From the NCBI GenBank assembly GCA_964493205.1, contig CAZBMJ010000001.1, positions 9,611 to 73,610 on the forward strand: 64,000 nucleotides of DNA, given 5' to 3'. The first letter of the stretch is position 1. Every line of letters starts with the position of its first letter. The notes below the pieces were generated by a model that was not told the DNA's origin, made no database searches, and saw only the letters and a program-made list of their open reading frames with translations. Shown here piece by piece: positions 29,933 through 56,530 of the stretch. The stretch comes from an uncultured Myxococcales bacterium (GTDB lineage: Bacteria > Myxococcota > UBA727 > JABDBI01). Made by a program: the position numbers and the translations under genes.

Positions 29933-31384
29933 ATGTTACAACGAATTTATTGCTTATTAATTATTTTACTTTTTACTTTTACTTTATCTGCTGAAAATTT
30001 TGATTTTATAAATAGTTATCATATTAATAATCTTCATAAAAAAGGCATAAGTGGTGAGAATTATGAAGTAGGTATTCTTGAAAAAGGTTTAATTAATCAT
30101 TGTTCTCTTAATAATATACAATCTATAAGTGGTAGTTATAAAACAGATGTGGACCCTCATGCTAATCACGTAGCTGCCATATTAGCGGGTAATAGGTGCG
30201 AATCAGGTGATTTTAAAGGTGGTGTTTTAAAAAATGCTCAATTAGTACAAGCGCCCATTAACACTTATTTTGAACTAAAAAATGAAACACAATATAATTA
30301 CACCGATAATATCATTGATGCCCTTGAAGCTTTAGCTAAAAAAACTAAAATAATTAATTTTTCTCAAAGTTTTACAGATGTAAAGCGCACAACTTGGGGA
30401 TTTTCTAGAGAAAAATTTCATAAATTTTCTGATGAACAGATTGAACGCATAAAAAATATTTTAATTACAAATAATGCTGTTTTAATAAAAACTGCTTCTA
30501 ATGAAAGTAAGTATAGATTTGGAGAGGAAGATAGTGCAACGTATGGTATTCTTCAATTATTAAAGGCAGGGCTTGAAGATTATATATTGATTGTAACTAA
30601 CCTTGAATATGTGGATAGTCAAGATCTTAAAAATGAACGTGATTTTTACTTAGGTATGCAAGATTTAGTCAAAATTCTTGACCATAAAAAAAACGAAAAA
30701 ATAGAATACCATAAGCTTGGAACTATTATGAGCGATTATATTATTAATACGATGGAATATGAAAAAACTAATAGTTTTACTAAAGAGGAGTTGGTCAATG
30801 CAATTCCAGAACTATATACTGATTCTACGACACTCGAGCTATTTATGAAAGGAGGAGATGTTGAAGAGGGACTAAGAAAAGATTATCCCAAAATAGCAGG
30901 CTTTATTTCTGAGTTAGTTAAAGAAATTAATTTATTTATTACTATTAGGCCAACTATTAGCGATAAAAGTCAAATAGATGATCTAACGTATGAAGAAATT
31001 ATAGATTCTGCACAAAAAGAGATAAATAATCTAGCCCGGCTTCCTCAAGGAGAAGAACAAAATTTTGAGAATGCTGGTAAACTGAGAACTATGATTGCTG
31101 GAAATAATGAAATAGTGCAAAGAAATTTTATTGCTGCCTATGGAACTAATATTTATTCAGCTGGTAAAAATTTTAATGAATTTAAAACTGATACTGGTAG
31201 TAGTCAGGCTGCTCCTATTGTAACTGGTATAGCTGTATTGCTTCATGAATATTTGCGTAAAGAAAATAAAAATATTTCTTTTGTTGATGTTATTAAAATA
31301 ATCAAAGAAAATGCACGTCAAATAGGGGATGCTAGTTCTTTTGGTAGAGGAATTCTAGATGTTAAAAAACTTTTTAAAGATTAA
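29933..31384 (+). CDS. secreted subtilisin-like (S8 family) peptidase, with Glu at the catalytic-Asp position
   Basis: Signal peptide MLQRIYCLLIILLFTFTLSA. His motif HANHVAAILAGN, Asn motif TASNES and Ser motif GSSQAAPIVTG. The segment VGILEKG aligns to subtilisin VAVIDSG. The start codon is ambiguous (29873, 29921 or 29933). Confidence 0.6.
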   Translation: MLQRIYCLLIILLFTFTLSAENFDFINSYHINNLHKKGISGENYEVGILEKGLINHCSLNNIQSISGSYKTDVDPHANHVAAILAGNRCESGDFKGGVLKNAQLVQAPINTYFELKNETQYNYTDNIIDALEALAKKTKIINFSQSFTDVKRTTWGFSREKFHKFSDEQIERIKNILITNNAVLIKTASNESKYRFGEEDSATYGILQLLKAGLEDYILIVTNLEYVDSQDLKNERDFYLGMQDLVKILDHKKNEKIEYHKLGTIMSDYIINTMEYEKTNSFTKEELVNAIPELYTDSTTLELFMKGGDVEEGLRKDYPKIAGFISELVKEINLFITIRPTISDKSQIDDLTYEEIIDSAQKEINNLARLPQGEEQNFENAGKLRTMIAGNNEIVQRNFIAAYGTNIYSAGKNFNEFKTDTGSSQAAPIVTGIAVLLHEYLRKENKNISFVDVIKIIKENARQIGDASSFGRGILDVKKLFKD

Positions 31385-31449: not shown

Positions 31450-32262
31450 TTGTTAAGTATAGACCAAAAAATAAATATAAAAAATTTTGTTTGGCCTTGG
31501 CTATTTTCATTTTTATTATGCTCATTAGCAATTTTCTTATTTATTCTTAGTATTTTTATTGAAGTGCCATTAAAAATTTCAGGAAAAGGCTGGTTTTTAA
31601 TGCATGGAGAGATTCATCAAATTACTAGTCTTCATCATGGTATTATTGACGAGTGGTTAGTAAAAGAAGGTGATAATGTAGAAATTTCTCAAATAGTTGC
31701 AAAAATTATAAGTGAAGAAGATCCTACAAAATTCATAGAAATAAGAAGTTTGCATAAGGGTATAATGGCTGAAATTTTAGCTTTTAGTGGATCTAAAGTG
31801 GTATTTGGACAATCATTAGCATTGATTACTCCTCATGGTGACAAGCACCAAGATTTACAAATAATGGCTTTTGTTTCATCGCTAGATGGTAAAAAGATTA
31901 GACCAGGTATGGCTGTAGAAGTTTTTCCAAGTATTACAGATTTTCATCAAAATGGATATTTAGTTGCGCAAGTTTCAGAAGTTTCTAAGCTGCCAATAGC
32001 TAAATCTGCGCTGTATTCACTCATAAAAATACCTGAGTTGGCTAAGTATATAAGACAAAGTGTGCAAGCTGAGCCTTTTGTTATATCTTTAAAGCCTGTT
32101 TTAAATAGTAATCATAAAACTGGTTATTTGTGGCAGGGTAAGGGTCCATTATTTGCTCTAGATTCTGGTATTATTGCTGATGTTTATGTTATTTATGAAT
32201 ATTCAAGTATACTAAAACTCATATGGCCATCTTTTCATAATCTTTTATTTAGAGATGAATAA
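31450..32262 (+). CDS. short HlyD-like membrane-fusion/accessory protein lacking the alpha-helical hairpin
   Basis: N-terminal TM helix and two lipoyl-like half motifs separated by only ~25 aa. TTG start. Translationally coupled to the next gene. Confidence 0.5.
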   Translation: MLSIDQKINIKNFVWPWLFSFLLCSLAIFLFILSIFIEVPLKISGKGWFLMHGEIHQITSLHHGIIDEWLVKEGDNVEISQIVAKIISEEDPTKFIEIRSLHKGIMAEILAFSGSKVVFGQSLALITPHGDKHQDLQIMAFVSSLDGKKIRPGMAVEVFPSITDFHQNGYLVAQVSEVSKLPIAKSALYSLIKIPELAKYIRQSVQAEPFVISLKPVLNSNHKTGYLWQGKGPLFALDSGIIADVYVIYEYSSILKLIWPSFHNLLFRDE

Positions 32263-34191
32263 ATGTTTAGCAATATAAAAAAAACAAAAAGTTTACTGCA
32301 AATAAATCCTGTGGAATGCGGTGCTGTTTGTCTTAGTATTGTATTAAAATATTTTAGAATAAATCATAATCTTAATGAATTAAATAATAGTATAGGATTA
32401 TCATCTGCTGGCTGTAATGCCTTAAATTTAATTGAAACTATAAAGAAGTACTCTTTAAATGCTGAAGCAAAAAAATATTTATCTAATGATGTAAAAAAAG
32501 ATTCTCATATGCAAATTTTATTGTTTAATAACAGCCATTTTGTTGTTTATGAAGGATTTTATCATAAAAAATACTATATTAACGATCCAGCCTGTGGTCG
32601 TTATTGTTTAGCTGAATCAGAATTTAAAAAAAAATATTCTAATTTTAGTATTATTATTTTAAATAATCTTAATAATAATTTTTTTAAGATGCTTAAAAAT
32701 ATAAATATTAAAAATTATATAAATAATATATTTTTATATTTATGTGGATTTTTAGTTGGATTATTATTTTGTTTTATAAGCTTTACTGTAAGTAATTTAA
32801 TGTTTAAATCTTTAATTTCAAAACATTATTTAAGTTTAATTTTTTTTATTTTTATATTTTTTAATTATTTTTTATTTTTATATTTTGATAAATTAAATTT
32901 ATTATTATCTGTTAAATATTATAAAAAATTATTAATAAATATTTTTAATGTTAAACCAGACTTTTTTAATAATAACCCGTCTTATTTAGTTTCTAGTAAA
33001 ATCATAAATGACTTTTTTAGTTTTTTACAAAACAAAAAGCACGCTATAAGAACACCAATTTTTACTGGAATAGTTTTTTCTTTAATTTTTTCATTTTTTG
33101 TTTCTAATAAAAATATTTTTTTATCTTTATTATTAATATTAGGTTTTTTACTTGTAATTTTATTAGTTTTTAAAAATAAAATACAAGAATTTTTACGAGA
33201 AAAAGAACAATTTAGTTCTACCATTTCTTTTGCCCTTTTTAATAGCTTATCTTTTAATAAGGGATGGCAGCAAGAATCAAATAACCAAAAATCAATAAGA
33301 TCTTTAATGAAAAGTGAGTTTTTATTTTTATCAATTAATTTTAATAAGATTATTTTATATAATTTTCTTCGTCATATGAATAGTATCTGCTTTTTATTTA
33401 GTGTATTATTATTAAGCGTAGTTGGTTTTTCTGAAATGCATGTTGGTCGTATTTATATTTCAGAATTAATGGCCTTATTATTTTCTTTACCTTTGTTGTA
33501 TTTTCTTCTTAATTATTTATTGATATATAATAATAGTGATAATAATGCAGGTGATTTAAGATTAGAATATGAAGGTTTAAAAAAAGAAAATTTTAGCTCT
33601 TTAAACTTAAAAATAGAAAAGAATAAAATATATGCTTTAATAACTGTTTCAGAGCGGGAAAAAATAGAATTTTTAACTGATTTAACTAATAATAAAAAAT
33701 ATGATTTTTTATATTCTTTAATAAACAATGAGAGCTCTTTGATTAATGGAAGCATTATTGAAAATATTTGCTTAGCTACTTTTGAACATAATGAACAAAA
33801 AATTATAAAAGCATTAGAGCTAGCTTGTATTAATGAAATTTATTTTAATAGACCAATGGGTTTGTTAACTTTTATTGATAAGTATGGAAGCACTATTAGT
33901 CATGGCCAAAAAAAGCGTTTGTTATTGGCTAGAAGCTTATTTTATAATCCAGAATTATTATTACTCGATGATTTTTTTGATGCTCTCCATCAAGAAGTAG
34001 TTATAAAAATTTTAGAGAACTTAAAAAAGATACAAATTACTACTATTTTTACAGCTACCCGTGAATTTGAGCTATTGCAAGCTCATGAAATAATTTTTTT
34101 ACATAATAATAAAGTAGTGCAAGGAACTCATGAAGAGCTCTTAAGAAGCAATAAGCATTATCAAGGAATTTTTGTCAAATGGACAATTTAA
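32263..34191 (+). CDS. ABC half-transporter with an N-terminal C39 peptidase domain and a degenerate NBD
   Basis: C39 motifs QINPVECGAVC (Cys), NSHFVVYEGF (His) and NDPACG (Asp). A TMD follows. The NBD has no Walker A and carries signature ISHGQ, Walker B LLLDD (no Glu) and no H-loop His. Confidence 0.7.
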   Translation: MFSNIKKTKSLLQINPVECGAVCLSIVLKYFRINHNLNELNNSIGLSSAGCNALNLIETIKKYSLNAEAKKYLSNDVKKDSHMQILLFNNSHFVVYEGFYHKKYYINDPACGRYCLAESEFKKKYSNFSIIILNNLNNNFFKMLKNINIKNYINNIFLYLCGFLVGLLFCFISFTVSNLMFKSLISKHYLSLIFFIFIFFNYFLFLYFDKLNLLLSVKYYKKLLINIFNVKPDFFNNNPSYLVSSKIINDFFSFLQNKKHAIRTPIFTGIVFSLIFSFFVSNKNIFLSLLLILGFLLVILLVFKNKIQEFLREKEQFSSTISFALFNSLSFNKGWQQESNNQKSIRSLMKSEFLFLSINFNKIILYNFLRHMNSICFLFSVLLLSVVGFSEMHVGRIYISELMALLFSLPLLYFLLNYLLIYNNSDNNAGDLRLEYEGLKKENFSSLNLKIEKNKIYALITVSEREKIEFLTDLTNNKKYDFLYSLINNESSLINGSIIENICLATFEHNEQKIIKALELACINEIYFNRPMGLLTFIDKYGSTISHGQKKRLLLARSLFYNPELLLLDDFFDALHQEVVIKILENLKKIQITTIFTATREFELLQAHEIIFLHNNKVVQGTHEELLRSNKHYQGIFVKWTI

Positions 34192-36125
34192 TTTTAAATT
34201 TAGCTAAATTACGAAAAGTTAGCGCTAATAAAGAAGAAAAGTCTTTGGATTGTGCAGTGCTTTTCTATTTACTTGATCATGCAAGAAATTTTTTTAACAT
34301 ACCATCAAAAATTACTTTTAATTTTTTTATAACAAATACTTTTATTACAGTTTTATATGAATTATGCAAACAAGCTCAATTAAATTTTATTGAATTTAAT
34401 GATTTCAATACTAAATATTTAAATGCTTTTTTACCATTAATTGGAGTTCATAAAAAAAGTTTTTCTTTTTCTTTATTTATTCCTTATGGATTAAGTAAGT
34501 ATAAAATTATTGAGTATGAAAATAAAAACAAAAATATAGTATCAAAAAATATGTTAAAGGACGACTATGTTTTACTAGGAGCTTTTTATCCAAAGAATAT
34601 AAATCTAAACTCTATTTTTTCATTACATAAAATTATTGTATTTTTAATTTTTTTTTCTTTGTTAGTAATTGCATGCTTTTTATTTGTTAGTTATTTTAAT
34701 TATATTAATAATTTACTTCTTTTGTTGATTTCTTTATTTATTTTTTTGTTTTTCCTGGTGTTTATATATATTTTTATTGTCACTAAACTACCTCTTTTTG
34801 TTCTTATTTGTATGCATAAATTTTATGAAAAGTCTTTAATTCGTCAAGAGCAGAAAAAAATTGAAGATTTTTATGGTATTATTTTTAATTTTATATGGTT
34901 GCTGTTTTTTTGTTTAGTATTGTTATTTAGTGTAATTTCTATTGCTATATTCTTGAAAAATTTTATGTTTATTATTTTTTCTTTAGTGAGTTTATTATTC
35001 TTAATAATATATTTTTATTTTAACATTCAACTTCAAAAATTACAAAGCAAAATAGAATCATCAAAAATAAATATTATTGATAAAACCAATGAATATTTTG
35101 AAATATTTTCTTTTATTTTGTCTTTTAAAAAACAAGAATTTTTTTTTCAAAAAATTATAACATATTTTGATGGTTTATTATTAAATATTATAAAATATAT
35201 TAAATATTTTAATATGAAAATTTTATTTATTATGGCAAGTTCTTTTGCTTGGTTTTTTGTGTTAAATTTATTTATTATTGTTTTTAAGTTAACTATCTTA
35301 GATTGGCAAGTATGGTTTTTATCAGTTTTAAGTGTGATATTTTTGTTTTTTATGGAACGAACTAATAATTATATTTATCTAATGCTAAAATTTTATAAAG
35401 ATTATTTACATTTTTCTACTCAAGATTTTTCTAAAAAAATAAAAGTAAGGCCTGTTCATATAGAAGGTTCTATTGAGTTAATTAATATTTGTTTTTCTTT
35501 TGATGAGCAAAGCTCTTTATTATTTAAAGATTTGTCGCTAAGTATTAAACCAGGAGAAATGGTCGCAATAGTTGCTAAGTCTGGAGCAGGTAAATCTAGC
35601 TTGCTGAGTATACTGGCAGGTATCACTAGGCCTACGAAAGGTTTAGTCGTTTTTGATGGTCAAGATGCACAAAGCCTAGATTTGTTAATGCTTAGTGATT
35701 ATTTTGCTTTAATTACCCATGCCACAAAATTATTTGCAGGCAGTGTTTTTGATAATATTAATTTTGGTCGTAATATTTCTTTTTCAAAAGTTAATAAGCT
35801 TATTAATTCTCATGAGATATTTTCTTCTTTGCTACAGTTGCCAATGGGATTAAATACTTATGTTTTTTGGCATGCAAAAAATATTTCTAGATTTGATTCT
35901 TATCTGATATTTTTGGCCAGAGCATTAATAGAACAACCAAAAGTACTTTTGCTAGATGAAGCTTTGGCTGGATTGAGTATTCAGCAGCAAATCAGCTTAT
36001 TAACTTATTTGAAAAATTTAAATCTAACTTGTGTTATTTCTAGTAACGATTTAGTTCCACAAAATTATTTTGACCAAATATTTGAAATATACGAATTTTC
36101 TTTGAACAAAATCCATCTCGCATAG
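34179..36125 (+). CDS. ABC half-transporter with an N-terminal C39-like domain and a Walker A/B-competent NBD
   Basis: Walker A AKSGAGKSS and Walker B VLLLDEA. The signature is degenerate (ISRFD) and the H-loop is degenerate. Overlaps the upstream gene by 13 nt. Confidence 0.7.
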   Translation: MDNLILNLAKLRKVSANKEEKSLDCAVLFYLLDHARNFFNIPSKITFNFFITNTFITVLYELCKQAQLNFIEFNDFNTKYLNAFLPLIGVHKKSFSFSLFIPYGLSKYKIIEYENKNKNIVSKNMLKDDYVLLGAFYPKNINLNSIFSLHKIIVFLIFFSLLVIACFLFVSYFNYINNLLLLLISLFIFLFFLVFIYIFIVTKLPLFVLICMHKFYEKSLIRQEQKKIEDFYGIIFNFIWLLFFCLVLLFSVISIAIFLKNFMFIIFSLVSLLFLIIYFYFNIQLQKLQSKIESSKINIIDKTNEYFEIFSFILSFKKQEFFFQKIITYFDGLLLNIIKYIKYFNMKILFIMASSFAWFFVLNLFIIVFKLTILDWQVWFLSVLSVIFLFFMERTNNYIYLMLKFYKDYLHFSTQDFSKKIKVRPVHIEGSIELINICFSFDEQSSLLFKDLSLSIKPGEMVAIVAKSGAGKSSLLSILAGITRPTKGLVVFDGQDAQSLDLLMLSDYFALITHATKLFAGSVFDNINFGRNISFSKVNKLINSHEIFSSLLQLPMGLNTYVFWHAKNISRFDSYLIFLARALIEQPKVLLLDEALAGLSIQQQISLLTYLKNLNLTCVISSNDLVPQNYFDQIFEIYEFSLNKIHLA

Positions 36126-36161
36126 CTATATATATTTTTAATAAGCTTGAAAGAGGTTTTT

Positions 36162-39146
36162 GTGCCTAAAGTAGAAAATAATATCGTTCAAAATAGTCAA
36201 AATCTTATTTTAGAAAACATTGATAATAATAAAAAAAATACTTTTAGTATAATGGGTATCAGCATATCTGGCCTTGATTCATCATGCATAAATAATCTTA
36301 ATTTGGTGCTTAATGTAGATTTAGCTGCGGGCAAAAAGAAAATTAGATTTAAAAATAAAGAAGCTCTTCTAGATGTAAGGCCCAATACAAAAGCTTTAAT
36401 TCAAATTAAATTATTTAAAAATATAAACAAACTTGCCATAGAGCAGATTAAAGTTTCTTTTGAAAAAAAACTAATTATTAAAAATCCTGCTTCTTCAATG
36501 AGTTCTAATCCTAATAATTTGACTAATACTATTAAAGACTCATTAGTGGATTTAAAGCTTAAAGAAGTTTTAATAGATCAAGAAGGTAATGTTTCGGTAA
36601 ATTCTAAAATTAAAATTCTTAAATTATTTAATAAAAAAATTAAACCATTAATTAATCCTTTAAAAATGCCTGATCTAGAAGAAATATTTTTATCTAATTT
36701 GGGTATAAGTAATGATGAAAATAGTATTGATAATTTAAACTTAAAAAATCTTTTAAAAGATTTAGGTTGCTTGACTTCTCAAGCATTTTTTAGTCTTGAT
36801 GTTAATGGACCTGTTAAAGACCTTTTTCTAAACGGCAATGGGGTAAAAATAAAAGGTCATCAAGAAATGCTAAAAATTTTTGTTAAAGGTGCTTTTGATC
36901 TAGATAAAGAGGGCGGGCTATCAATAAACATACACAAAGATTATTCACACATACAAAGTAGCTTAGGAAAAACAAATTTTGAAGCAGATATTTATATTCC
37001 TAAAATATATAATGCTAAGAAAAAACCTATAAATTTAAGTTTAAAAGCAAGTATTACCAGCGAAATAAACGATATTTTTATTGAAGCAGCTACTGATAAA
37101 GCTATCACTCAGATGATGCCACGAACGCAAAAAAAAGATGATAAGGCCACAGAATCCATAGTAGATGATTTTAATACATCTTTTGGTAGTAAAAAATTAG
37201 TAGCTACTATGGGTATAGATATTAAGGCTGCATTAGATCCAAAAATGAATATTTCATCAATGAATGGATACGCAAAGATGCGTACAAAATTTACCGATGC
37301 TTTTGGTTTATCAAAAGATAGAGGAATAGAGCTGTCGGGAAAACTTTATACCGATGTTACTATTAACAAATTTAGTTATCATCAAGGCGATGCTTTTATT
37401 AAGAGTAAAGGCAGTGCTGCATTTCTAATAAAACCTTCTCGCAAAATAGAAGAAAAATTTCCTGGTATTAAGCCATTTAATACTAAATATAAATTTAGCA
37501 CTAATAGCACTGCTCAAGCAAAAATAGTACCATCTAGCAAGGGTTTGACACATTTTTTATACCCTGTAAAAAATTTAGAAGGTCATTATGAAAGAATAAA
37601 TAATGATTTAACGAAGAATAATATTTGTGAAATAGGAAGCAAAGAGTATTTTGAACAAATAAAAAGAATTACTGGGGCAAGCATAAGAAATACTCAAAAA
37701 GTTAAGCTTTTAATAGATGGCCAAGCTTCTATGCCAGAGCGAATAAAGCTAATTAATGAAGCAAAAGATTTTATTTGCTTTCAAACCTTAGTTTTTAAAG
37801 GCGATAAAAGTGGTTTAGAATATGCTAATGCTTTAATCAATGCTTCTCAAAGAGGGGTTAAAATTTATGGTATTATAGATTCTCTTGGTAACATTGAGTC
37901 TTTTGATGAACTTGAGCATGAACACCCGATTTATAAATTATTGAAAGAAAATGGGATAAAATTTTATTTATATAATTCTTTTTTAGAAGATGGTTTAAGA
38001 GGCTTATTTAAAATCGTAGATCAGTATCCAAATGTTTTTGGAGTGATGAATGCTAAAAATACTAAAAATATACATCAGATAATTAAATTTTTTCAAAAAA
38101 TTATGGAAGTTATTGATTCTAGCGAAACTAAAGATTTTGATAAAAGCAAAAAACGTGAACTAGCTAGAGCCATGCATACATTGTTTGGTGGTAAAACTGA
38201 AGTCTCTACTCAAACGGCTATTAATGAAATTAGAGAAGCTTTAGAAAGTAATAGACTCGATTTAAATGCCATATTGAGCGCGGTGAAACATTTAAGTGAT
38301 ATTTCTTATAGGTGGCATGAAAAATATTTAGTTGCCGATGGTGATAAAGCTATTATTGGTGGAATGAATATTGCTGATGAGTATTTGATGGGTGGAAGTC
38401 CTGAAATTCTCAACCTTAAGGGAAAAGAACAGCTTGCCTGGCGTGACACAGATGTTTTATTGCATGGCGATGGTGCTTGTGACGTTTATAAAAATTTTCG
38501 TAGAAATTGGTTTTATTTATCCAATCATCGTTTAGAAAAAGGCCCTAAGATTAGTCATCCAAGTACTGGTAAACAGGTAGCTATATTGCAGCATCGGCCT
38601 ATGATCGATCAAGACCACAATATTTCAAATTTTTTGCTCTATAACTTAAGAACTCTTAGCCCAGGACAAAGAGCTTGGTTTGAAACAGCATATTTTTTAC
38701 CACGCGGCGTTTTAAAAATTTTGCAAGAAGAATTAGTCAGTGCAGCTAAAAGGGGAGTAGACGTAAGAATACTAACTAATAGCGAAAAAACTAGTGATTT
38801 TGGTCCGTTGGTAGAATCTTGTATTTTTGACACCAGAGAACTTATTAGGGCGGGAGCTAAAGTTTATCACCGCAACGAAGGCCGTATGGTACATTCTAAA
38901 GTGTCTATTTTTGGTGATAATTTAACGTTGGTGGGCTCTTGGAACTTTGATAATCGTTCAGCTTTTCATGATTCAGAAGATGCTTGCGCTATTTATGACC
39001 AAGAGCTAACAAAAGATATGATTGCTACTTTAGAAAAAGATATGTATGAAGATTCCTATGAAGTTAAATTAGCGGACATAAAAAATCAGCCCATAGCTAA
39101 TGAGTTAAAAAGTGCTGTTATGCTTCTTGGGGCTGAATTGTTTTGA
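36162..39146 (+). CDS. large phospholipase D-superfamily protein (two HKD motifs), N-terminal ~490 aa unassignable
   Basis: GTG start preceded by AAGAGG. HKD motifs WHEKYLVADGD and VHSKVSIFGD. No signal peptide. Confidence 0.7.
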   Translation: MPKVENNIVQNSQNLILENIDNNKKNTFSIMGISISGLDSSCINNLNLVLNVDLAAGKKKIRFKNKEALLDVRPNTKALIQIKLFKNINKLAIEQIKVSFEKKLIIKNPASSMSSNPNNLTNTIKDSLVDLKLKEVLIDQEGNVSVNSKIKILKLFNKKIKPLINPLKMPDLEEIFLSNLGISNDENSIDNLNLKNLLKDLGCLTSQAFFSLDVNGPVKDLFLNGNGVKIKGHQEMLKIFVKGAFDLDKEGGLSINIHKDYSHIQSSLGKTNFEADIYIPKIYNAKKKPINLSLKASITSEINDIFIEAATDKAITQMMPRTQKKDDKATESIVDDFNTSFGSKKLVATMGIDIKAALDPKMNISSMNGYAKMRTKFTDAFGLSKDRGIELSGKLYTDVTINKFSYHQGDAFIKSKGSAAFLIKPSRKIEEKFPGIKPFNTKYKFSTNSTAQAKIVPSSKGLTHFLYPVKNLEGHYERINNDLTKNNICEIGSKEYFEQIKRITGASIRNTQKVKLLIDGQASMPERIKLINEAKDFICFQTLVFKGDKSGLEYANALINASQRGVKIYGIIDSLGNIESFDELEHEHPIYKLLKENGIKFYLYNSFLEDGLRGLFKIVDQYPNVFGVMNAKNTKNIHQIIKFFQKIMEVIDSSETKDFDKSKKRELARAMHTLFGGKTEVSTQTAINEIREALESNRLDLNAILSAVKHLSDISYRWHEKYLVADGDKAIIGGMNIADEYLMGGSPEILNLKGKEQLAWRDTDVLLHGDGACDVYKNFRRNWFYLSNHRLEKGPKISHPSTGKQVAILQHRPMIDQDHNISNFLLYNLRTLSPGQRAWFETAYFLPRGVLKILQEELVSAAKRGVDVRILTNSEKTSDFGPLVESCIFDTRELIRAGAKVYHRNEGRMVHSKVSIFGDNLTLVGSWNFDNRSAFHDSEDACAIYDQELTKDMIATLEKDMYEDSYEVKLADIKNQPIANELKSAVMLLGAELF

Positions 39147-41493: not shown

Positions 41494-42705
41494 TTAAAAG
41501 ATAAAATAACTGACCACTGCTATCGAACAGGCTATAGCAGCTCCTATGCCCAGAGCTTTATGGTTGAAATAATAGTTTTTTTTATTTTTTTGTTTAAAAA
41601 ACATTTTACTTTTGATTTTTACAGATTTCTCAATTTCTATGAGTGGCTTGTTTATGTCCACAATTAACTTACTTACTTCGCTAGCTGGATTAAAAATTTC
41701 ATAGCCTTGAGCATTAGATGCTAAGTCTATTATTTGCATTAAATTATTTTTTAGAACTTTTTTATCGTTACATGAAAAATTTTTCTCATAAAAAATTTGG
41801 CAAGAAGACTGATAGTGATAGGGAAAGTGAAATTCTAGATGCTTTGAATTTGTCCCAAGAGTAGCTAAAATTCTCAGGTCAAGCTGACATGAAATAATTT
41901 CAAAAGTCTCAACACCATAGTCAATTGCCCAAACAATATGAGAAGGCATCCTTATTTTATTTTCCACATCCTCGATATAATCTTTTACATCAGAATAAAT
42001 AAATATTTTTATATTTTGAAAAAGGTACTGCATTAAGTTATTAAATTGAGTCATTTTTGTTTCATTGCTTAATTGTGAATTATTAATATATCTATCATAA
42101 GATTTATCAATCAAATTTAGCTCAATATTTAAATTTTTTACATGTTTTATTTTACTCAATGAAAGCATTATAAGTAAATCTTGAAATAAGCCACCACTCG
42201 CAAATGAAGTAATAACTAATGTATTATTTAAATCACTTAAAATAGATGTTAATAGTGCTGGGTGAGCAAGTTCAGTACTAATAGCTCGTATTATGGTATC
42301 CCTTAAACTGGGGTCGCTCTTTCTATAATAGGGGCAATAATTTGTGCTGCATTCATCAAGCTTAGAGCATAAATTGGTATCAAAATTTTCAGTTGGTTTA
42401 GATAATTTGCTTTGCTCTTCATGCCAGATTTTTATTTTATTTTGGTAAATTTCTTTTGGGTTATTTTCTTGTACAACCCCTGGATGCATTTGTATAAATT
42501 CTTCATAACTTAGAGGCTGTTGGTTATAAAGAATAGAGTGCAAAATTTCGGAAGGACATTTTTCAAGAAAATATTGTAAAGCTGCAAATTGCTCATGATT
42601 AATTTCCGTATGATGCTTGAGCTCAAGGCCCTGCATAGACCATGAAAAGCTTGACCAGAGATATAAAATTGATATTATTGTCCATAAACATTTATATTGT
42701 TTCAT
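41494..42705 (-). CDS. hypothetical secreted protein with a C-terminal TM anchor
   Basis: Signal peptide MKQYKCLWTIISILYLW. RBS GGGGAG. C-terminal helix ALGIGAAIACSIAVVSYFIF. No recognisable domain. Confidence 0.5.
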   Translation of the reverse strand: MKQYKCLWTIISILYLWSSFSWSMQGLELKHHTEINHEQFAALQYFLEKCPSEILHSILYNQQPLSYEEFIQMHPGVVQENNPKEIYQNKIKIWHEEQSKLSKPTENFDTNLCSKLDECSTNYCPYYRKSDPSLRDTIIRAISTELAHPALLTSILSDLNNTLVITSFASGGLFQDLLIMLSLSKIKHVKNLNIELNLIDKSYDRYINNSQLSNETKMTQFNNLMQYLFQNIKIFIYSDVKDYIEDVENKIRMPSHIVWAIDYGVETFEIISCQLDLRILATLGTNSKHLEFHFPYHYQSSCQIFYEKNFSCNDKKVLKNNLMQIIDLASNAQGYEIFNPASEVSKLIVDINKPLIEIEKSVKIKSKMFFKQKNKKNYYFNHKALGIGAAIACSIAVVSYFIF

Positions 42706-42787
42706 TTTTTTCTCCCCAACTCTCATAGCAGACAAATATCTTGTAAGCTAGTAAGGGAGTAAGCACTTGGTTTAAGCAGATTTAACA

Positions 42788-44812
42788 TTAGTTACCAAAC
42801 ATAAAATATGCTGCAAAATTACCGACAATAAAAATAGTTAGGCACATAAGAGCTTTTAAGTGGGAAAAGTCTGGCAATAATTCTTGTGTGGTAGTTTGTC
42901 TTTTGCCATAGAGTACTGATGAAGTCATTTGTATAAGATTTATACCATTTATAACAAATATTAAGTGAAAACAAATAACAAATAACAGTCCTTTGTGAAT
43001 AGATAAATGCAGTAATAAATCTTCTGCAAAAAATGAAGTTGATAGAGGAAAAGCTATTATTCCTAAAATACTAATTAAAAATAGTGTTCCAGCACGAGGG
43101 AAAAAATAATAAAGACCTAAAAATTTTTCGAAAGAAACTATTTTTTTGTGCTTTTTAATATGATGCATGCAGTAAAGACAGACAAAAAAAGATATTACTA
43201 ACCCTAAAAAAAAGAAAATAATAGCTCGTAGGGAAACATCATTTACAAAAATAATACAGAGATAGCATAAAGCATAGCTAAGAATAACTAAACTAAGAAG
43301 TAAGACGGGGTCTTTTTTTTCAGCAAGAGCACATAAACTTAAAAACAGGCTTAAGGTTAACGCAAGCGCTTGAAAAAAATATAACTCTGGCCATAAAAGT
43401 AAACTACTAATAACGCTAAACATAAGTAATAAAGGAGGTATAAAAGAAAAAAATATAGTCTCAGAAATGGCGTTTAGTTTACTTCTTGAAGAGATCTTAT
43501 TAAAAATAAATAAATTATTGTAACAAGCTTCACTTACTATTTTTATTGGCGTAACAAAAATTTTTATTAAAATTGCTTCAAAATATCCTTCGTTTAGGGC
43601 AAAGATAAATAATCCTTGATGAAATTTTTTGGGTACTAAGTTAAGTACAGAATATCTTTGTAAAAAATAGGCAGGTTTTTCTAGACTTTGTAATTGCAAG
43701 TGAGTTGCTATAATAGAAGGTGAAACAAGCAACTGAAAACAACGCAAAAATGTGTTTCCTACCATATGAAATAAAGCTAAATATTTAAGACCTAGAGCAA
43801 GTTCTATGAGTATTATTCCAACTTGAGCAATAGAAGTATAGCCAATTTGGCCTTTAATATTTGATTGTACATGAGCAAAAAGGCTACAGCTTAATGTTGT
43901 TATTAATCCAATGCTTGCGAGCAAATAACTAAAACCAGGAGTGCCTTGCCAAATAGGCATGGTTCTGATGAGTAAAAAAACTCCTGCATGTATTGATAAG
44001 GAACCATAAAAAAGTGCACTGGAAGAAGTAGGGCCTTCCATAGCTTTAGGAAGCCAAAAACTAAATGGAAATTGAGCAGATTTCCCTAAGACTGGCAGCA
44101 ATAAACAGATGCTTAAAATCCAATGCCAAAAAAGAGAAATAGGCATTTCTGATTGCAAGTTCGACCACTTGTTAAGTTCTTCAAAAGTTGTGGCATCATG
44201 CCAATAAAAATGCGTAATTAAAACTCCAGCCAAAAATCCTAAATCACAAACACGAAAAATATAATATGCTCTATTAGCTGCTACAATAGCTTTTGGCCGG
44301 TGCCAAAAATATCCTATTAATAAGAAAGATGAAATTCCCATTATTTCCCAAGCAGCAAAAGTTATGTCGAGAGTTCCTGATAATGAAACCAAATTAATAC
44401 CAAAGGTAAAAAATGAAACTACAGTAAAAAACCTAGTAAAACCGGGATCACGGTGCATATATTTAGTGGAGAAAAAACATATTATATTGACTATTAATGT
44501 TGAGCATAACAAATAAATTATAGATATTAAATCTACAAATAATGAAAAATGCAGATGATAATCAGGTAAAATATAGAGTTTAAATAATTCGTAAGATTCA
44601 GTTGGCATAAACGCTCTTATCCAAGCAATAAAAGCCATTAATGTAAAAAATAAATTTATTAAAAAAATACTTTTGATAATTATAACAGTAAGATATTCTT
44701 TTTTTATTATAGTAATTTTATTTAAATTAAGAAGACTTAAGCAAAGCCCAGATAATAATGGAGTAAATAGGCAAACTAGTAATGAAAACCATAATAAATT
44801 CAGGTTAATCAT
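42788..44812 (-). CDS. dabB: DabB, NuoL/MnhA-like proton-translocating membrane subunit of the DAB inorganic-carbon pump
   Basis: 674-aa polytopic protein with NuoL/Mrp antiporter-like helices. Its stop overlaps the dabA 3' end. Confidence 0.7.
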   Translation of the reverse strand: MINLNLLWFSLLVCLFTPLLSGLCLSLLNLNKITIIKKEYLTVIIIKSIFLINLFFTLMAFIAWIRAFMPTESYELFKLYILPDYHLHFSLFVDLISIIYLLCSTLIVNIICFFSTKYMHRDPGFTRFFTVVSFFTFGINLVSLSGTLDITFAAWEIMGISSFLLIGYFWHRPKAIVAANRAYYIFRVCDLGFLAGVLITHFYWHDATTFEELNKWSNLQSEMPISLFWHWILSICLLLPVLGKSAQFPFSFWLPKAMEGPTSSSALFYGSLSIHAGVFLLIRTMPIWQGTPGFSYLLASIGLITTLSCSLFAHVQSNIKGQIGYTSIAQVGIILIELALGLKYLALFHMVGNTFLRCFQLLVSPSIIATHLQLQSLEKPAYFLQRYSVLNLVPKKFHQGLFIFALNEGYFEAILIKIFVTPIKIVSEACYNNLFIFNKISSRSKLNAISETIFFSFIPPLLLMFSVISSLLLWPELYFFQALALTLSLFLSLCALAEKKDPVLLLSLVILSYALCYLCIIFVNDVSLRAIIFFFLGLVISFFVCLYCMHHIKKHKKIVSFEKFLGLYYFFPRAGTLFLISILGIIAFPLSTSFFAEDLLLHLSIHKGLLFVICFHLIFVINGINLIQMTSSVLYGKRQTTTQELLPDFSHLKALMCLTIFIVGNFAAYFMFGN

Positions 44813-47168
44813 TTAGTCCTCCTTCTAAAATTTTAAATTCTTTTGTTTCTGTACAAAAAATCCATAGTTTATTTTCAGTAATGGATAAACAACCAAGCTT
44901 CATCCAGTCATTAAAAATCCAATTATGAAATGCTTGATTATTTTGTATTATTTTTTTAATTATTTCTTTCTCTTGTTCTATTACTAAAAAAAGCCGTATG
45001 GGATCATGTAGTTCTGTCATTTGGATAGGTAGACCAGTTCTTAAGTCATCATCTGCTCCATTGCCTACCCCTAAAAGACTTGAAACATTATGAGAAACTT
45101 TACTTCCACAACCATAGATGCTTGGGTCAAGTCTAGAAAAATAGTATGCTAAATTAATCCCTCCAGCTACTGGTATTAATGCTGACAAAATTTCATTAAG
45201 AATAATGCCTTCTGGATCAGTTAAGGGATCATAGCTTTGCAGAAATGCTCTGCGATTAAAATTTTTTCCATAAGAACGCTGACGTCTTGCTACAATTGCT
45301 AAAGCATTGGTGGCATTCCCCAGTTCTGGCCTGGGTTCAAAGAGTGATAAAGAACGTTTTTTGACTTCTAACAAAGCATCTTTGGGGCTTATATCTTTGG
45401 AGACTAAAGCAAATTTTTCGCATCTTTCTTTAGCATTATGCATACAAACTTTATGAAGAATTTTTTTAAAGTTAGAAATATGATTTTTGTGGTTAGGAAG
45501 TAAATTTTTAGTATCAAAAAATTCTACTTCGTCTGTGCATGTATTATGTGAGCCAGCTACAAATATGGTAGAGTCAGGTATTTTTAAATCTTGTTGTTCT
45601 AAAAGTTTTCTTACTTGCCTATTATTAGCCATTTGAGCTAAAATAATAGCGTTAATAGTGCCCGGCTGGCCGCAACATGCTCCACAATTATATCCAGCAA
45701 AATGGGGATTGTTAGTGCTAGTTGATCCATGAGCCATAAAAATTATTAAAGGCGCAAAATTATTCAGTAATCCTATTGAAGTAAGAGTTTTTTTAACAAT
45801 AAATGCCATTTCGTCTTCAGTATAGCCAATTTGATATTGTTTATACTTTGGAAATTTTGAATCAAAAATAAAATCAAAATTATTAAAAGTTTCCTTAGTA
45901 ATAGGTCCTTGCCACCATTTTTTTTGTGGCCATACAAGACTTGCAAGCATGCTCAATAAAGAAAGATGTCCAAGGGTATGGGTGGCGATAAAGTCGAGAA
46001 AAATATTATGAGAGCCATATTTAGCGGCATAATTAGTAAGAGCTAAATATTTATTTTTTTTTGGTTTATTTTTACGAATTATTACATGAGTGGGATTTAG
46101 GGGGAGTGGGCAAATTTTTTCTTTTTGTTTTGAGCTTTCATCTAATAAAAAACTGTCTATATTAAAAAAACCAGGCATGCTAAAAGTCTCAATATTCAAA
46201 GAAAAATGTTCTAACCACCTTCTGAAAGATTCTTCTCGAGCATCTATGCAACAAATTACTTGGGTATCAATTGTAGATTCTATTTTATTTGGTGCCAAAA
46301 CTAAAAGTTTAGCAACTTTTTCATAATAAGTAAGCTCCATAGCTTCATGCCAAATTTTTTGTAAATTTCTAACTTGGTTATTTTTATTAAAATCTGCTTC
46401 AAGTTTGCTTAGGTAAACAGTAGTTTTTTTATATTTTTCTATGAACAGATATTCTAGAACAAGTTTAAAAGCCAATACTTCTTTTAGGGTTATATTTACT
46501 GGTTGATTTAGTAATTTTGAACTCTTTTCTAAAGAATTTACCATTCCTGACCAGCCAGGGTGAACTAGTAGTGATTCAAAAATATATTGTTCATAATAAA
46601 TTTCGTCTTTAGTAATTAATTTAAGTATATCTAGAATTATTTTATCAGGCTCATTAATTAAGTATTGATTTAAAGTTTTATTACTCGCAAATGAAACTAG
46701 CGGCATAGTGCTCTTAGTAATTAAATCCCGTACGCTTATTAAAAATCCTTTAGTTTTATCTAAGTAATTCCATAAGCTAATACCTTGATCTGTGTAAAAG
46801 CTAAGTAATCTAAATAATATTGGATTAATGTGATGATCAATATTTTTCTTTATTTGCTTATTGATTAAATCCCTAAAAGTTCTTTTTTTAAAAATTTCTT
46901 CTGCCTCATTAAAATTATTTAAATCATGCAAAGTTATTTTTTCATCAGATATTTCTTGGTTTTTATATTTTTGTCTATAAAAAGATAAGGGCATATAGCT
47001 GTAAGAGTTATATATCTCTGAGGCTTTTTTTATGCCTTCATGAAAATTATAGTCCATAAAACTAAGTAGAATATTTTGTTGGACAAAGTTTTTGATGGGA
47101 CCTTGAATAGGCAAATATTTCCTAACATAACTTAGACAATCATCTAAGTTAAAGTTGTTATTATTCAC
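44805..47168 (-). CDS. dabA: DabA (DUF2309) carbonic-anhydrase-like subunit
   Basis: 787 aa with the conserved CCIDAREE and HGSTSTNNPHFAGYNCGACCG metal-ligand regions. GTG start with GTGAGG RBS. Overlaps dabB by 8 nt. Confidence 0.75.
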   Translation of the reverse strand: MNNNNFNLDDCLSYVRKYLPIQGPIKNFVQQNILLSFMDYNFHEGIKKASEIYNSYSYMPLSFYRQKYKNQEISDEKITLHDLNNFNEAEEIFKKRTFRDLINKQIKKNIDHHINPILFRLLSFYTDQGISLWNYLDKTKGFLISVRDLITKSTMPLVSFASNKTLNQYLINEPDKIILDILKLITKDEIYYEQYIFESLLVHPGWSGMVNSLEKSSKLLNQPVNITLKEVLAFKLVLEYLFIEKYKKTTVYLSKLEADFNKNNQVRNLQKIWHEAMELTYYEKVAKLLVLAPNKIESTIDTQVICCIDAREESFRRWLEHFSLNIETFSMPGFFNIDSFLLDESSKQKEKICPLPLNPTHVIIRKNKPKKNKYLALTNYAAKYGSHNIFLDFIATHTLGHLSLLSMLASLVWPQKKWWQGPITKETFNNFDFIFDSKFPKYKQYQIGYTEDEMAFIVKKTLTSIGLLNNFAPLIIFMAHGSTSTNNPHFAGYNCGACCGQPGTINAIILAQMANNRQVRKLLEQQDLKIPDSTIFVAGSHNTCTDEVEFFDTKNLLPNHKNHISNFKKILHKVCMHNAKERCEKFALVSKDISPKDALLEVKKRSLSLFEPRPELGNATNALAIVARRQRSYGKNFNRRAFLQSYDPLTDPEGIILNEILSALIPVAGGINLAYYFSRLDPSIYGCGSKVSHNVSSLLGVGNGADDDLRTGLPIQMTELHDPIRLFLVIEQEKEIIKKIIQNNQAFHNWIFNDWMKLGCLSITENKLWIFCTETKEFKILEGGLND

Positions 47169-47175
47169 TAGTGCC

Positions 47176-48753: not shown

Positions 48754-48888
48754 AATTTTTCCCATTGGATTCACTACCAGTATAGCTTTATTTGCTGTAT
48801 TTGGAAGGAATTTTAGGCATATAGTCAAGTATTGACAAACAAATTTAAAATTGATCAAGCTTTATTTAAATTTTACAGGAATTTAAAA

Positions 48889-49686
48889 ATGAAAAAACTA
48901 ATGGTTATATTTTTTTTGATGGCTTCTTTTTCAGCAACAGCAAGTAATACTTCCAGTAGCATATTAACTATGGCTGATATAGCTATATATATGAAAGAAT
49001 TTAAGGAACCTAAGACTCATTGTTTCGCAAATGAAAAATTTGTTAGAAAATTACAAACTATAAATACCTTTTTTATTGATAATAACGATTGCAAAATGCA
49101 AGAAAAATATCATTCGCTAATTTCTGAAGTTATTTCTCCTATTTGCGCTCGTGCAAAAATTAAAAATCTAAATATAAATAATTTTAATATTGATCATAAT
49201 TTTATTGGTCTTCTTTTAGCAGAAAGAAGCTCTTTTTCTTGTTTAACTGAATTAAATTTATCATTTAATAGTCTTCTGGCTATTCCTGAGAGTGTATATT
49301 TGATTTGTCAATTACGAGTATTGAAACTGCACTTTAATGATATAAAAAATATTGGCAAAAAAATATCTAATTTAACCAATTTAGAGCAGCTTATATTAGA
49401 TAATAATAATATTGTTAAATTGCCGTCCAGTATTTGTGAGTTAAAAAAAATAAAATTAATCAGTTTATTAGATAATGATACTGTAATAAGCCATAGTATG
49501 GAAAATCATTTTGAGAAAATAGGATGCAAGATTATTTTAGATCAAGAGGTAACAGAATCAATAGAGGGAAGCACTGAAGCTTTAGAGCAAACTGGCGAAG
49601 AAATAGAAGCAACAGAATCCTTAGAACAAAGTGGCGAAGAAATATTTCCTATGGATATAGATGATGAAGATAGTTCACAGGATTAA
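48889..49686 (+). CDS. secreted leucine-rich-repeat protein with an acidic C-terminal repeat
   Basis: Signal peptide MKKLMVIFFLMASFSATA. LRRs (LTELNLSFNSLLAIP, LRVLKLHFNDIKNI, LEQLILDNNNIVKLP). C-terminal TEALEQTGEEIEA/TESLEQSGEEIF. Confidence 0.7.
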   Translation: MKKLMVIFFLMASFSATASNTSSSILTMADIAIYMKEFKEPKTHCFANEKFVRKLQTINTFFIDNNDCKMQEKYHSLISEVISPICARAKIKNLNINNFNIDHNFIGLLLAERSSFSCLTELNLSFNSLLAIPESVYLICQLRVLKLHFNDIKNIGKKISNLTNLEQLILDNNNIVKLPSSICELKKIKLISLLDNDTVISHSMENHFEKIGCKIILDQEVTESIEGSTEALEQTGEEIEATESLEQSGEEIFPMDIDDEDSSQD

Positions 49687-56133: not shown

Positions 56134-56208
56134 GCTGGCGTAGCTCAATGGTAGAGCATCTGCCTTGTAAGCAGGAGGTTGCGGGTTCAAGTCCCATCGT
56201 CAGCTCCA
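56134..56208 (+). tRNA. tRNA-Thr (anticodon TGT)
   Basis: Acceptor GCTGGCG/CGTCAGC, anticodon loop CTTGTAA, CCA encoded. Confidence 0.85.
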
Positions 56209-56215
56209 AAAATAT

Positions 56216-56301: not shown

Positions 56302-56307
56302 ATTTTC

Positions 56308-56383: not shown

Positions 56384-56387
56384 TTTG

Positions 56388-56464: not shown

Positions 56465-56530
56465 ATATTGTTTGTTTTTTGTCTCGATTTAATTTTTGAA
56501 ATAGTGTATTTGTATTAAGAAGGTTTTTAT

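What the first reader, a model, noticed from the sequence alone, without database searches (positions are those of the whole stretch)
36162..39146. Roughly 994-aa protein: unknown N-terminal half fused to a dual-HKD phospholipase D domain, with no signal peptide
Large PLD-domain proteins are used as effectors by several pathogens. Here two HKD motifs (HEKYLVAD, HSKVSIFGD) follow ~490 aa of unassignable sequence. The GTG start is backed by a strong RBS. No Sec or Tat signal is present, which fits export by the adjacent ABC system or a contact-dependent route.
Basis: partly seen in the sequence, partly recalled or inferred. Interest (0 to 1): 0.55.

Follow-up and report, generated by a model that had tools for sequence, protein, structure and literature searches.

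The report
Lineage-specific phospholipase D with orphan beta domain
The gene is real and encodes a 994-residue enzyme whose C-terminal half is an intact cardiolipin-synthase-like phospholipase D and whose N-terminal half is an all-beta domain of unknown fold, but it behaves like a vertically inherited core gene of an uncultured bacterial lineage, and nothing tested here shows that the neighbouring ABC exporter secretes it.

Summary
The ORF at 36162-39146 (+) starts at GTG with an AAGAGG ribosome-binding site 5 nt upstream and encodes 994 aa. Both catalytic motifs are present, and there is no Sec or Tat signal and no TM segment. Residues 1-~505 match no Pfam, NCBIfam or PDB entry.

The protein belongs to a rare family: 32 clusters among 1.84 billion representatives, and nearly all full-length members (~890-1130 aa) show the same architecture. 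The N-domain was found only with the PLD half or in 172-647-aa proteins, at least one of them truncated.

AlphaFold (pLDDT 84, pTM 0.78) predicts a ~430-residue all-beta N-domain with no convincing structural neighbour. The C-half is a bilobed PLD fold closest to PLD1/2 and PssA. By sequence it is closest to cardiolipin synthases, but far below their family cut-offs.

The upstream HlyD/C39-ABC/ABC trio is a RiPP-type, double-glycine peptide exporter with an intact catalytic Cys/His. The PLD has no double-glycine leader. The adjacency holds in 7 of 12 loci, but it sits inside a syntenic backbone of housekeeping genes (S1-MiaB ... serS-GST-RluA), and PLD-serS adjacency is at least as frequent.

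Best reading: a lineage-specific lipid-modifying PLD. Secretion is unproven.

The parts
36151..36156 (+). Shine-Dalgarno-like AAGAGG, 5 nt upstream of the GTG start
   Evidence: Read directly from the sequence
36162..39146 (+). Complete CDS, 994 aa plus stop: N-terminal orphan beta domain fused to a PLD-superfamily catalytic half
36162..36239 (+). Residues 1-26: polar, predicted-disordered N-terminus. The family-wide start is MPx[IV], followed by a linker of variable length. No signal peptide and no double-glycine leader.
   Evidence: pLDDT <50 for residues 1-26; alignment of N-termini; regex tests
36240..37541 (+). Residues 27-460: all-beta N-domain of about 26 strands, several 15-22 residues long, with disordered loops at 154-163, 176-190 and 311-337. 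Fold unassigned. The NP(A/S)S motif at residues 108-111 has N108-P109 invariant.
   Evidence: AlphaFold models; no Pfam, NCBIfam or PDB match; family profile search; invariant columns
37542..37682 (+). Residues 461-507: highly conserved linker (THFLYPVKNLEGHYERIN...YFEQIKRITG). It is modelled confidently only when the PLD half is present.
37683..38531 (+). Residues 508-790: first PLD lobe, including a helical insert at about residues 607-714 (nt 37980-38303)
   Evidence: AlphaFold secondary structure; Foldseek against PLD1/2, PssA and bacterial PLDs; relatives of the C-half that cover 96-100% of it
38316..38339 (+). HKD motif 1, HEKYLVAD (residues 719-726), followed by GGMNIADEY as in Cls-type enzymes
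38571..39086 (+). Residues 804-975: second PLD lobe (Pfam PLDc_2 best stretch 836-960)
38892..38918 (+). HKD motif 2, HSKVSIFGD (residues 911-919), followed by GSWN. In this family Gly is the commonest residue at the canonical Asp position.
39093..39143 (+). Residues 978-994: conserved C-terminal amphipathic helix (...ELKSAVMLLGAELF), shared with shorter members of the same PLD subfamily
31450..32262 (+). Context only: HlyD-like adaptor (NHLP-system type). Not shown to belong to the PLD's function.
   Evidence: TIGR03794 E=1.2e-32, below cut-off; orthologues in 6 other loci
32263..34191 (+). Context only: ABC exporter with an N-terminal C39 peptidase domain (Cys19/His92/Asp108 kept). Walker A is degenerate in this copy.
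34179..36125 (+). Context only: second ABC exporter subunit (NHLM_micro_ABC2-like). Its stop lies 36 nt before the PLD start.

Best explanation
The gene encodes a catalytically competent, lineage-specific member of the PLD superfamily from the cardiolipin-synthase/PssA-like, lipid-directed branch.

Shown:
- Two lobes each contribute an HxK motif to one active site.
- The family keeps these motifs under purifying selection.
- The catalytic half is preceded by a ~430-residue all-beta domain plus a conserved linker. These occur with this PLD in nearly all full-length family members, and the model places them in a fixed arrangement with the catalytic half.

Inferred:
- The enzyme uses the standard PLD ping-pong mechanism (a phosphatidyl-histidine intermediate resolved by water or an alcohol) on membrane glycerophospholipids.
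- With no export signal or membrane anchor, it acts as a soluble or peripheral protein on the cytoplasmic face of the cell's own membrane, in lipid remodelling or headgroup exchange.
- The N-domain serves as an accessory substrate- or membrane-engaging module.

The gene is a vertically inherited backbone gene of an uncultured lineage whose closest rpoC relatives are MAGs labelled Myxococcales/Myxococcota. Its closeness to the C39-ABC exporter is best explained by shared ancestry of gene order.
For: - Family membership: PLDc_2 99.8 bits and PLDc 26.8 bits. The best NCBIfam hits are cardiolipin synthases (TIGR04265, E=4e-35).
- Fold: Foldseek matches PLD1/2, PssA and bacterial PLDs at E=1e-14 to 1e-11.
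- Motifs: the first HxK...GGxN motif is found in 23 of 26 aligned members and the second HxK...GSxN motif in 23 of 26.
- Family size and architecture: only 32 clusters among 1.84 billion, and nearly all full-length members (~890-1130 aa) have the same architecture.
- Model: the full-length model has pTM 0.78. The N-half modelled alone drops to pLDDT 71.6 and loses confidence in residues 460-505.
- Localisation: no signal peptide or TM segment.
- Backbone position: PTPS-S1-MiaB-...-PLD-serS-GST-x-RluA recurs in loci whose PLD is only 27-52% identical.
- Evolutionary rate: in the same genomes the catalytic half (51-52% identity) diverges at about the rate of S1 (53-55%) and RluA (50-56%), and only a little faster than serS (62-65%).
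Against: - No activity, substrate or localisation can be read from sequence.
- All Cls equivalog cut-offs are missed by a wide margin (121.6 vs 290; 90.9 vs 281), so the reaction is unknown.
- The positive charge of the N-domain (+22) is limited to the low-GC clade. Distant members range from -31 to +12, so electrostatic membrane binding is not a conserved family property.
- The conserved MPx[IV] start plus a disordered polar leader, the large size, the eukaryote-like repeat proteins in the genome and the recurring exporter neighbour (7 of 12 loci) all fit an exported protein.
- I could not check whether these genomes also carry canonical cls/pssA genes.
Confidence: 0.5

Rival explanations
1. 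The protein is an exported phospholipase toxin or effector. It leaves the cell by a non-classical route (type III/IV/VI-like or contact-dependent) and attacks host or prey membranes. The N-domain would serve for targeting or membrane insertion.
For: - No Sec/Tat signal, but a conserved MPx[IV] start followed by a polar, disordered 20-100-residue leader across the family.
- An N-domain of long amphipathic beta hairpins, whose weak best Foldseek neighbours are outer-membrane barrels, autotransporter beta-domains and the lipid-binding P47/OrfX proteins.
- The N-half evolves much faster (27-31% identity) than the catalytic half (51-52%).
- The genome encodes ankyrin, RCC1, LRR and papain-like proteins typical of host-associated bacteria.
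- A PLC-type phosphoesterase sits next to the PLD in L092.
Against: - No secretion-system gene (VgrG, Hcp, PAAR, T3SS, T4SS) and no immunity-like partner was seen in the 31 window ORFs scanned against Pfam or among the called genes of the related loci.
- The gene sits at a fixed backbone position between housekeeping genes and is inherited vertically down to 27% identity, unlike typical mobile effector genes.
- The structural matches have TM-scores of only 0.08-0.2.
- High-GC family members show the same architecture, so the function is not tied to the low-GC, eukaryote-like-protein-rich genomes.
Confidence: 0.27
2. One reading: the PLD is cargo of the adjacent HlyD/C39-ABC/ABC exporter. That would make it an unusually large substrate without a canonical leader, for a peptidase-containing ABC transporter.
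For: - Same strand, with 36 nt between the ABC2 stop and the PLD start.
- The HlyD-ABC-ABC-PLD order recurs in 7 of 12 loci, including one at 27% PLD identity.
- There is no room for a precursor-peptide gene between MiaB and HlyD in three of the loci (gaps of 27-199 nt), and no Nif11-like peptide is encoded anywhere in the window. The PLD is therefore the only recurrent non-housekeeping neighbour.
Against: - The C39 domain is catalytically intact, which implies a double-glycine leader substrate (PMC6959990).
- The query has no G-G/A/S in its first 120 residues, and no family member has the consensus.
- The one conserved Gly (G32) lies in a predicted beta hairpin of the folded domain.
- There are no RTX repeats.
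- Five loci keep the PLD without the trio (L002, L003, L084, L085, L094). In sample SRR21358169 the trio stays with S1-MiaB (L173) while the PLD lies on another contig (L085).
- The serS adjacency, which has no plausible functional link, is even more constant.
- RiPP precursors are often encoded far from their exporter (general knowledge of prochlorosin-type systems).
Confidence: 0.1
3. The protein is a PLD-fold nuclease or anti-phage defence component (Nuc, DrmC or MkoB-like) rather than a lipid enzyme.
For: PADLOC hits to MkoB (6e-12) and DrmC (2e-9), and a PDB profile hit to Nuc 1byr (9e-9). All are confined to one lobe, residues ~842-961.
Against: - The Cls models score far better and span both lobes (E=4e-35).
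- The GGxN...EY and GSxN elements are Cls-like.
- The top structural neighbours are lipid enzymes.
- No defence genes lie nearby.
- The gene sits at a stable backbone locus rather than in a defence island.
Confidence: 0.03

Closest known systems
Bacterial cardiolipin synthases ClsA/ClsB (TIGR04265, NF009107, NF008427)
   Same: They are the best sequence matches for the catalytic half. Both share a single chain with two HKD lobes, the GGxN(I/V)xDEY element after motif 1, GSxN after motif 2, and a hydrophobic or amphipathic C-terminal tail.
   Different: The scores are far below the equivalog cut-offs (121.6 vs 290; 90.9 vs 281). There is no PLDc_N or TM anchor. Lobe 1 carries a ~100-residue helical insert. 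The second motif has Gly instead of Asp. A ~505-residue orphan N-terminal region precedes the catalytic half.
Type I phosphatidylserine synthase PssA (PDB 3hsi, 8yr5) and human PLD1/PLD2 catalytic domains (6ohr, 6ohm)
   Same: The same bilobed PLD fold. These are the top Foldseek neighbours, with E=1e-14 to 1e-12 and TM-score normalised to the target of 0.44-0.60. PssA is also a soluble or peripheral enzyme without a TM anchor.
   Different: Sequence identity is only 11-15%. None has the N-terminal beta domain. The reaction chemistry (CDP-DAG-dependent versus hydrolytic) cannot be transferred.
Secreted PLD effectors of pathogens (e.g. P. aeruginosa PldA/Tle5, PDB 7v53)
   Same: Large (~1000 aa) dual-HKD proteins without a Sec signal.
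   Different: There is only a marginal local sequence match (E=3e-5 over 37 residues). No VgrG, Hcp or immunity-gene context was found. The gene sits at a housekeeping backbone locus.
NHLP/Nif11 RiPP export trio (TIGR03794/03796/03797), i.e. peptidase-containing ABC transporters such as PCAT1
   Same: The three upstream genes match these models best, keep the C39 catalytic residues, and have a distant relative inside a Nif11 + radical-SAM cluster.
   Different: All scores are well below the cut-offs. No precursor peptide is encoded nearby. ABC1 has lost its Walker A motif in this genome. The trio lies between miaB and the PLD in a housekeeping backbone.

Membership tests
PLD superfamily (HKD enzymes) | Two HxK(x)4D-type motifs in one chain (or in a dimer), forming one active site | tested here: met
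   HEKYLVAD at 719-726 and HSKVSIFG-D at 911-919, followed by GGMN and GSWN. The second motif has Gly at the Asp position, the commonest residue there across the family.
PLD superfamily (HKD enzymes) | Profile match above the curated threshold | tested here: met
   PLDc_2 scores 99.8 bits (cut-off 27) and PLDc 26.8 bits (cut-off 21.9). All 26 aligned family members match PLDc_2.
PLD superfamily (HKD enzymes) | Bilobed alpha/beta PLD fold | tested here: met
   The AlphaFold model has pLDDT mostly >85 in residues 508-994. Foldseek gives E=1.6e-14 to PLD2, 3.5e-13 to PssA and 1.4e-11 to Streptomyces PLD.
Cardiolipin synthase ClsA (TIGR04265 / NF009107) | Score at or above the equivalog cut-off | tested here: not met
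   121.6 bits vs 290, and 104.5 bits vs 787.
Cardiolipin synthase ClsA (TIGR04265 / NF009107) | N-terminal transmembrane anchor (PLDc_N, PF13396) | tested here: not met
   No PF13396 hit. The maximum 19-residue hydropathy is 0.92, and no window reaches 1.6.
Cardiolipin synthase ClsA (TIGR04265 / NF009107) | Forms cardiolipin from phosphatidylglycerol | not testable with these tools
   Needs an enzyme assay or lipidomics.
Cardiolipin synthase ClsB (NF008427) | Score at or above the equivalog cut-off | tested here: not met
   90.9 bits vs 281.
Cargo of a peptidase-containing ABC transporter (PCAT) | N-terminal leader ending in a double-glycine (GG/GA/GS) cleavage site, with hydrophobic residues at -7 and -12 | tested here: not met
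   There is no G[GAS] dipeptide in residues 1-120 of the query or its two closest relatives, and no consensus in 25 family members. The consensus is taken from PMC6959990.
Cargo of a peptidase-containing ABC transporter (PCAT) | Conserved genetic linkage with the transporter beyond background synteny | tested here: inconclusive
   Adjacent in 7 of 12 loci, but within a conserved S1-MiaB...serS-GST-RluA backbone. The two lie on separate contigs in SRR21358169.
Cargo of a peptidase-containing ABC transporter (PCAT) | Transporter-dependent secretion | not testable with these tools
   Needs secretome analysis of wild type against a transporter mutant.
Classical type I secretion (RTX-type) substrate | GGxGxD nonapeptide repeats and an uncleaved C-terminal signal; the transporter has a catalytically dead C39-like domain | tested here: not met
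   No GGxGxD motif. The C39 domain keeps its catalytic Cys and His. The conserved C-terminal helix is shared with non-neighbouring PLD subfamily members.
Sec- or Tat-exported protein | N-terminal signal peptide or twin-arginine motif | tested here: not met
   The N-terminus is polar, with no hydrophobic core and no RR motif.
T6SS Tle5-type PLD effectors | Linkage to vgrG/hcp/PAAR and a cognate immunity gene | tested here: not met
   No such domains among 31 Pfam-scanned window ORFs or the called genes of the related loci.
TULIP/BPI-like lipid-binding domains (candidate for the N-half) | Profile or structural match to LBP_BPI_CETP, SMP or P47/OrfX | tested here: inconclusive

The most novel reading that the evidence does not exclude
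The ~430-residue all-beta N-domain is a new membrane-engaging or lipid-extracting module. The protein would then be a self-targeting phospholipase exported through the neighbouring precursor-less C39-ABC/HlyD machine by a leader-independent mechanism. That would be the first large enzyme cargo of a peptidase-containing ABC transporter, in a lineage of probable host- or prey-associated bacteria.
Probability: 0.08. Interest if true: 0.75.

Novelty: new variant of a known kind. Interest (0 to 1): 0.35.

Why it matters
If the best reading holds, this adds a rare, architecturally distinct branch to the PLD/cardiolipin-synthase superfamily. It also defines an orphan beta-rich domain that travels with a lipid enzyme in nearly all full-length family members, which is useful for annotating an uncultured lineage and for finding new lipid-handling folds. 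It would matter more if the protein proved to be secreted, because large PLDs are potent membrane-targeting effectors and a PCAT-type exporter moving a 110-kDa enzyme would be new. The practical result of this check is a caution: conserved adjacency to an exporter here sits within conserved housekeeping synteny and should not be read as a cargo relationship.

Tried and rejected
- **Pfam, NCBIfam, PADLOC and PDB sequence searches of the N-half** (single sequence, 16- and 26-member sets): nothing consistent.
- **Internal-repeat test of the N-domain by hhalign:** negative, with best probability 25%.
- **Conserved basic charge as a membrane-binding mechanism:** rejected, because distant members are acidic.
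- **GG-leader and RTX signals:** absent.
- **Nif11/NHLP precursor in the window:** none by tblastn and by inspection of small ORFs.
- **Promoter and terminator scan of 26.0-41.6 kb:** counts equal the shuffled expectation, so it says nothing about operon structure.
- **GTDB representative genomes scanned for the PLD family:** no hit. The organism could only be placed through rpoC, whose closest matches (68-87% identity) are MAGs labelled Myxococcales/Myxococcota.
- **Literature searches** for the related complete genome (CP060221 / GCA_023898405) and for a host-associated Myxococcota lineage: nothing usable.
- **A correction to my own work:** after I concluded that the ABC neighbourhood is not conserved. 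I revised this when more distant loci showed it.
Full report
**Observation**

The ORF is real. The ORF listing gives 36147-39146 (+) from a TTG. The GTG at 36162 is the better start. AAGAGG lies at 36151-36156, 5 nt upstream, and the closest homologues start MPK/MPR at exactly this position. The product is 994 aa.

HEKYLVAD is residues 719-726 and HSKVSIFGD is residues 911-919. Pfam finds PLDc_2 (99.8 bits, two lobes) and PLDc (26.8 bits), and nothing in the first ~500 residues. No 19-residue window exceeds a Kyte-Doolittle mean of 0.92. There is no twin-arginine motif and no RTX repeat.

**The protein family**

A word-indexed search of 5.8 billion proteins found only the protein itself and two relatives of 62-63% identity. 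An exhaustive HMMER profile search with the N-half (alignment A2) against 1.84 billion cluster representatives found 32 proteins. Nearly all full-length hits are ~890-1130 aa and carry the PLD half. The shorter hits (172-647 aa) lack it, and at least one of them ends inside the PLD region, so it is a truncated fragment. The N-region and the PLD thus form one dedicated architecture in a rare family.

The first HxK...GGxN motif was found in 23 of 26 aligned members, and the second HxK...GSxN motif in 23 of 26. In the second motif, Gly is the commonest residue at the canonical Asp position. A C-terminal amphipathic helix (E-L-x-x-A-x-x-x-L-L-x-E-L-x) is conserved. It is also present in shorter PLDs of the same subfamily, so it is a feature of the catalytic module and not a secretion tag.

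**Catalytic half**

NCBIfam places the catalytic half nearest to cardiolipin synthases: TIGR04265 at E=4e-35, NF009107, and ClsB NF008427. All are far below the curated cut-offs (121.6 vs 290; 90.9 vs 281). The 504-residue C-half has full-length relatives of 528-680 aa, some with a hydrophobic N-terminal hairpin. After those come ordinary 460-480-aa cardiolipin synthases that align only over about half its length.

The AlphaFold model, built on a 26-sequence family alignment, has mean pLDDT 84 and pTM 0.78. Foldseek against the PDB returns human PLD1/2 catalytic domains, PssA, a bacterial PLD and Streptomyces PLD at E=1e-14 to 1e-11. This is an intact, lipid-type PLD domain with a helical insert at about residues 607-714. 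A nuclease or defence reading rests only on one-lobe matches (Nuc, DrmC, MkoB), and I consider it unlikely.

**N-terminal half**

- Residues 1-26 are predicted disordered.
- Residues 27-460 form about 26 beta strands, several of them 15-22 residues long, with three disordered loops.
- Residues 461-507 are a highly conserved linker that is modelled confidently only when the PLD half is present.

The high pTM of the full-length model suggests the N-domain packs against the enzyme in a defined way. This is an inference.

Nothing assigns the fold. There is no consistent Pfam or NCBIfam hit for any of 16-26 members and no PDB sequence hit. Foldseek against the PDB and BFVD gives only TM-scores of 0.05-0.2, to porins, autotransporter barrels and LptD, and weakly to the lipid-binding P47/OrfX proteins. 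I found no internal repeats.

**The neighbouring ABC system**

The three upstream genes match the NHLP/Nif11 bacteriocin export trio best: HlyD-type TIGR03794, C39-ABC TIGR03796 and ABC TIGR03797. All score below the cut-offs. The C39 domain keeps Gln13, Cys19, His92 and Asp108 in the five orthologues aligned, so it should be an active peptidase. The window's ABC1 has lost its Walker A motif. A distant relative (P0170, locus L174) lies in a textbook RiPP cluster with Nif11-leader peptides and radical-SAM enzymes.

Such transporters recognise an N-terminal leader with L(-12), L(-7) and G(-2)G(-1) (PMC6959990). The PLD has no G-G/A/S dipeptide in its first 120 residues, and none of 25 family members has the consensus. 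The single conserved glycine (G32) lies in a predicted beta hairpin of the folded domain. The S8 protease upstream (29933-31384) has its own Sec signal and is not conserved in other loci. No precursor-like peptide is encoded in the window.

**Gene neighbourhood**

I compared 12 family loci, counting the window.

- **Order HlyD-ABC-ABC-PLD present (7 loci):** the window, L086 (complete genome CP060221.1), L089, L090, L091, L093 and the high-GC L092. In L092 a PLC-type phosphoesterase lies between the trio and the PLD, and PLD identity to the query is only 27%.
- **Order absent (5 loci):** L002 and L003 (the closest relatives, where Mqo and pyrophosphatase lie upstream), L084, L085 and L094.

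The same loci also share PTPS-S1-MiaB upstream and serS-GST-x-RluA downstream. PLD-serS adjacency, within three genes, holds in 9 of 12 loci. In sample SRR21358169 the trio stays with S1-MiaB on one contig (L173) while the PLD stays with GST-RluA on another (L085). The adjacency can therefore be explained by a slowly rearranging housekeeping backbone. It neither proves nor excludes a functional link.

In the same genomes the catalytic half is 51-52% identical, against 62-65% for serS, 64-68% for MiaB, 53-55% for S1 and 50-56% for RluA. The N-half is 27-31% identical and the trio 27-44%. The catalytic half is constrained like a housekeeping enzyme.

**Organism**

The window is about 31% G+C. 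Its RpoC fragment is 68-87% identical to MAGs labelled Myxococcales/Myxococcota and about 60% identical to everything else. The PLD family is absent from GTDB species representatives at the sensitivity of the pattern scan. The window encodes a 925-aa ankyrin protein and RCC1, LRR and papain-like proteins. These suggest association with eukaryotic cells, but they are circumstantial.

**Conclusion**

The best-supported reading (about 0.5) is a lineage-specific, vertically inherited PLD/Cls-like lipid enzyme with a dedicated accessory beta domain, acting without classical export. An exported phospholipase using an unidentified route is the main rival (about 0.27). The specific claim that it is cargo of the adjacent C39-ABC system fails its defining test, the leader, and rates about 0.1. 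A nuclease or defence role rates about 0.03.

The architecture and the N-domain are new as far as these libraries show. The enzyme class is known, so I rate this as a new variant of a known kind, of moderate-to-low interest unless secretion is demonstrated.

Noticed in passing
window 31450-36125: The HlyD/C39-ABC/ABC trio is only 21.6-23% G+C, against ~31% for the window. ABC1 has lost its Walker A motif (IYALITVSEREKIEF) but keeps the C39 catalytic Cys/His/Asp. No precursor peptide is encoded nearby or elsewhere in the window, so this is a RiPP-type exporter without a visible substrate, fixed between miaB and the PLD across a whole lineage.
   Followed up: partly
L173 and L085 (both from sample SRR21358169): The ABC trio (PTPS-S1-MiaB-HlyD-ABC-ABC-Thy1) and the PLD (kinase-PLD-...-GST-RluA) lie on different contigs of the same sample. 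This suggests a backbone break exactly between ABC2 and the PLD, with both parts retained.
   Followed up: partly
L092 8351-9922 (-): In the high-GC relative, a PLC/acid-phosphatase-type phosphoesterase (PF04185) is inserted between the ABC trio and the PLD, and NfeD/Band_7 genes follow the PLD. This is a second lipid or membrane-related neighbourhood signal.
   Followed up: no
window 12046-14823 (-), 17139-19306 (+), 48832-49686 (+): Eukaryote-like proteins: a 925-aa ankyrin-repeat protein in a 26% G+C stretch, a papain-family C1 peptidase, an RCC1-repeat protein and an LRR protein. These suggest a host-associated lifestyle.
   Followed up: no
window 41494-48858 (-): A DabA/DabB-like pair (PF10070 plus a proton-antiporter subunit), a SulP transporter and a 413-aa protein without any family match are inserted between serS-TerC and the GST-RluA block, relative to the syntenic loci.
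   Followed up: no
window 50-2647, 56134-61450: The rplK-rplA-rplJ-rplL genes are followed by truB and not by rpoBC, whose 3' end lies ~57 kb away at the window start. The Thr-Tyr-Gly-Thr ... Trp tRNA cluster has no tuf gene in it. The window also holds two separate six-domain S1 proteins (2805-4559 and 26543-28438).
   Followed up: no
window 15568-16497 (-) and 19336-19815 (-): Two BAAT/dienelactone-hydrolase paralogues lie 3 kb apart. The second is only 159 aa and matches just the C-terminal half of the domain, so it may be a truncated duplicate.
   Followed up: no
P0029/P0032: Shorter members of the same PLD subfamily (~607 aa) carry an N-terminal ~40-residue glycine/alanine-rich bilobed hydrophobic segment in place of the beta domain. 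The same catalytic module is therefore paired with different N-terminal targeting devices in different lineages.
   Followed up: no
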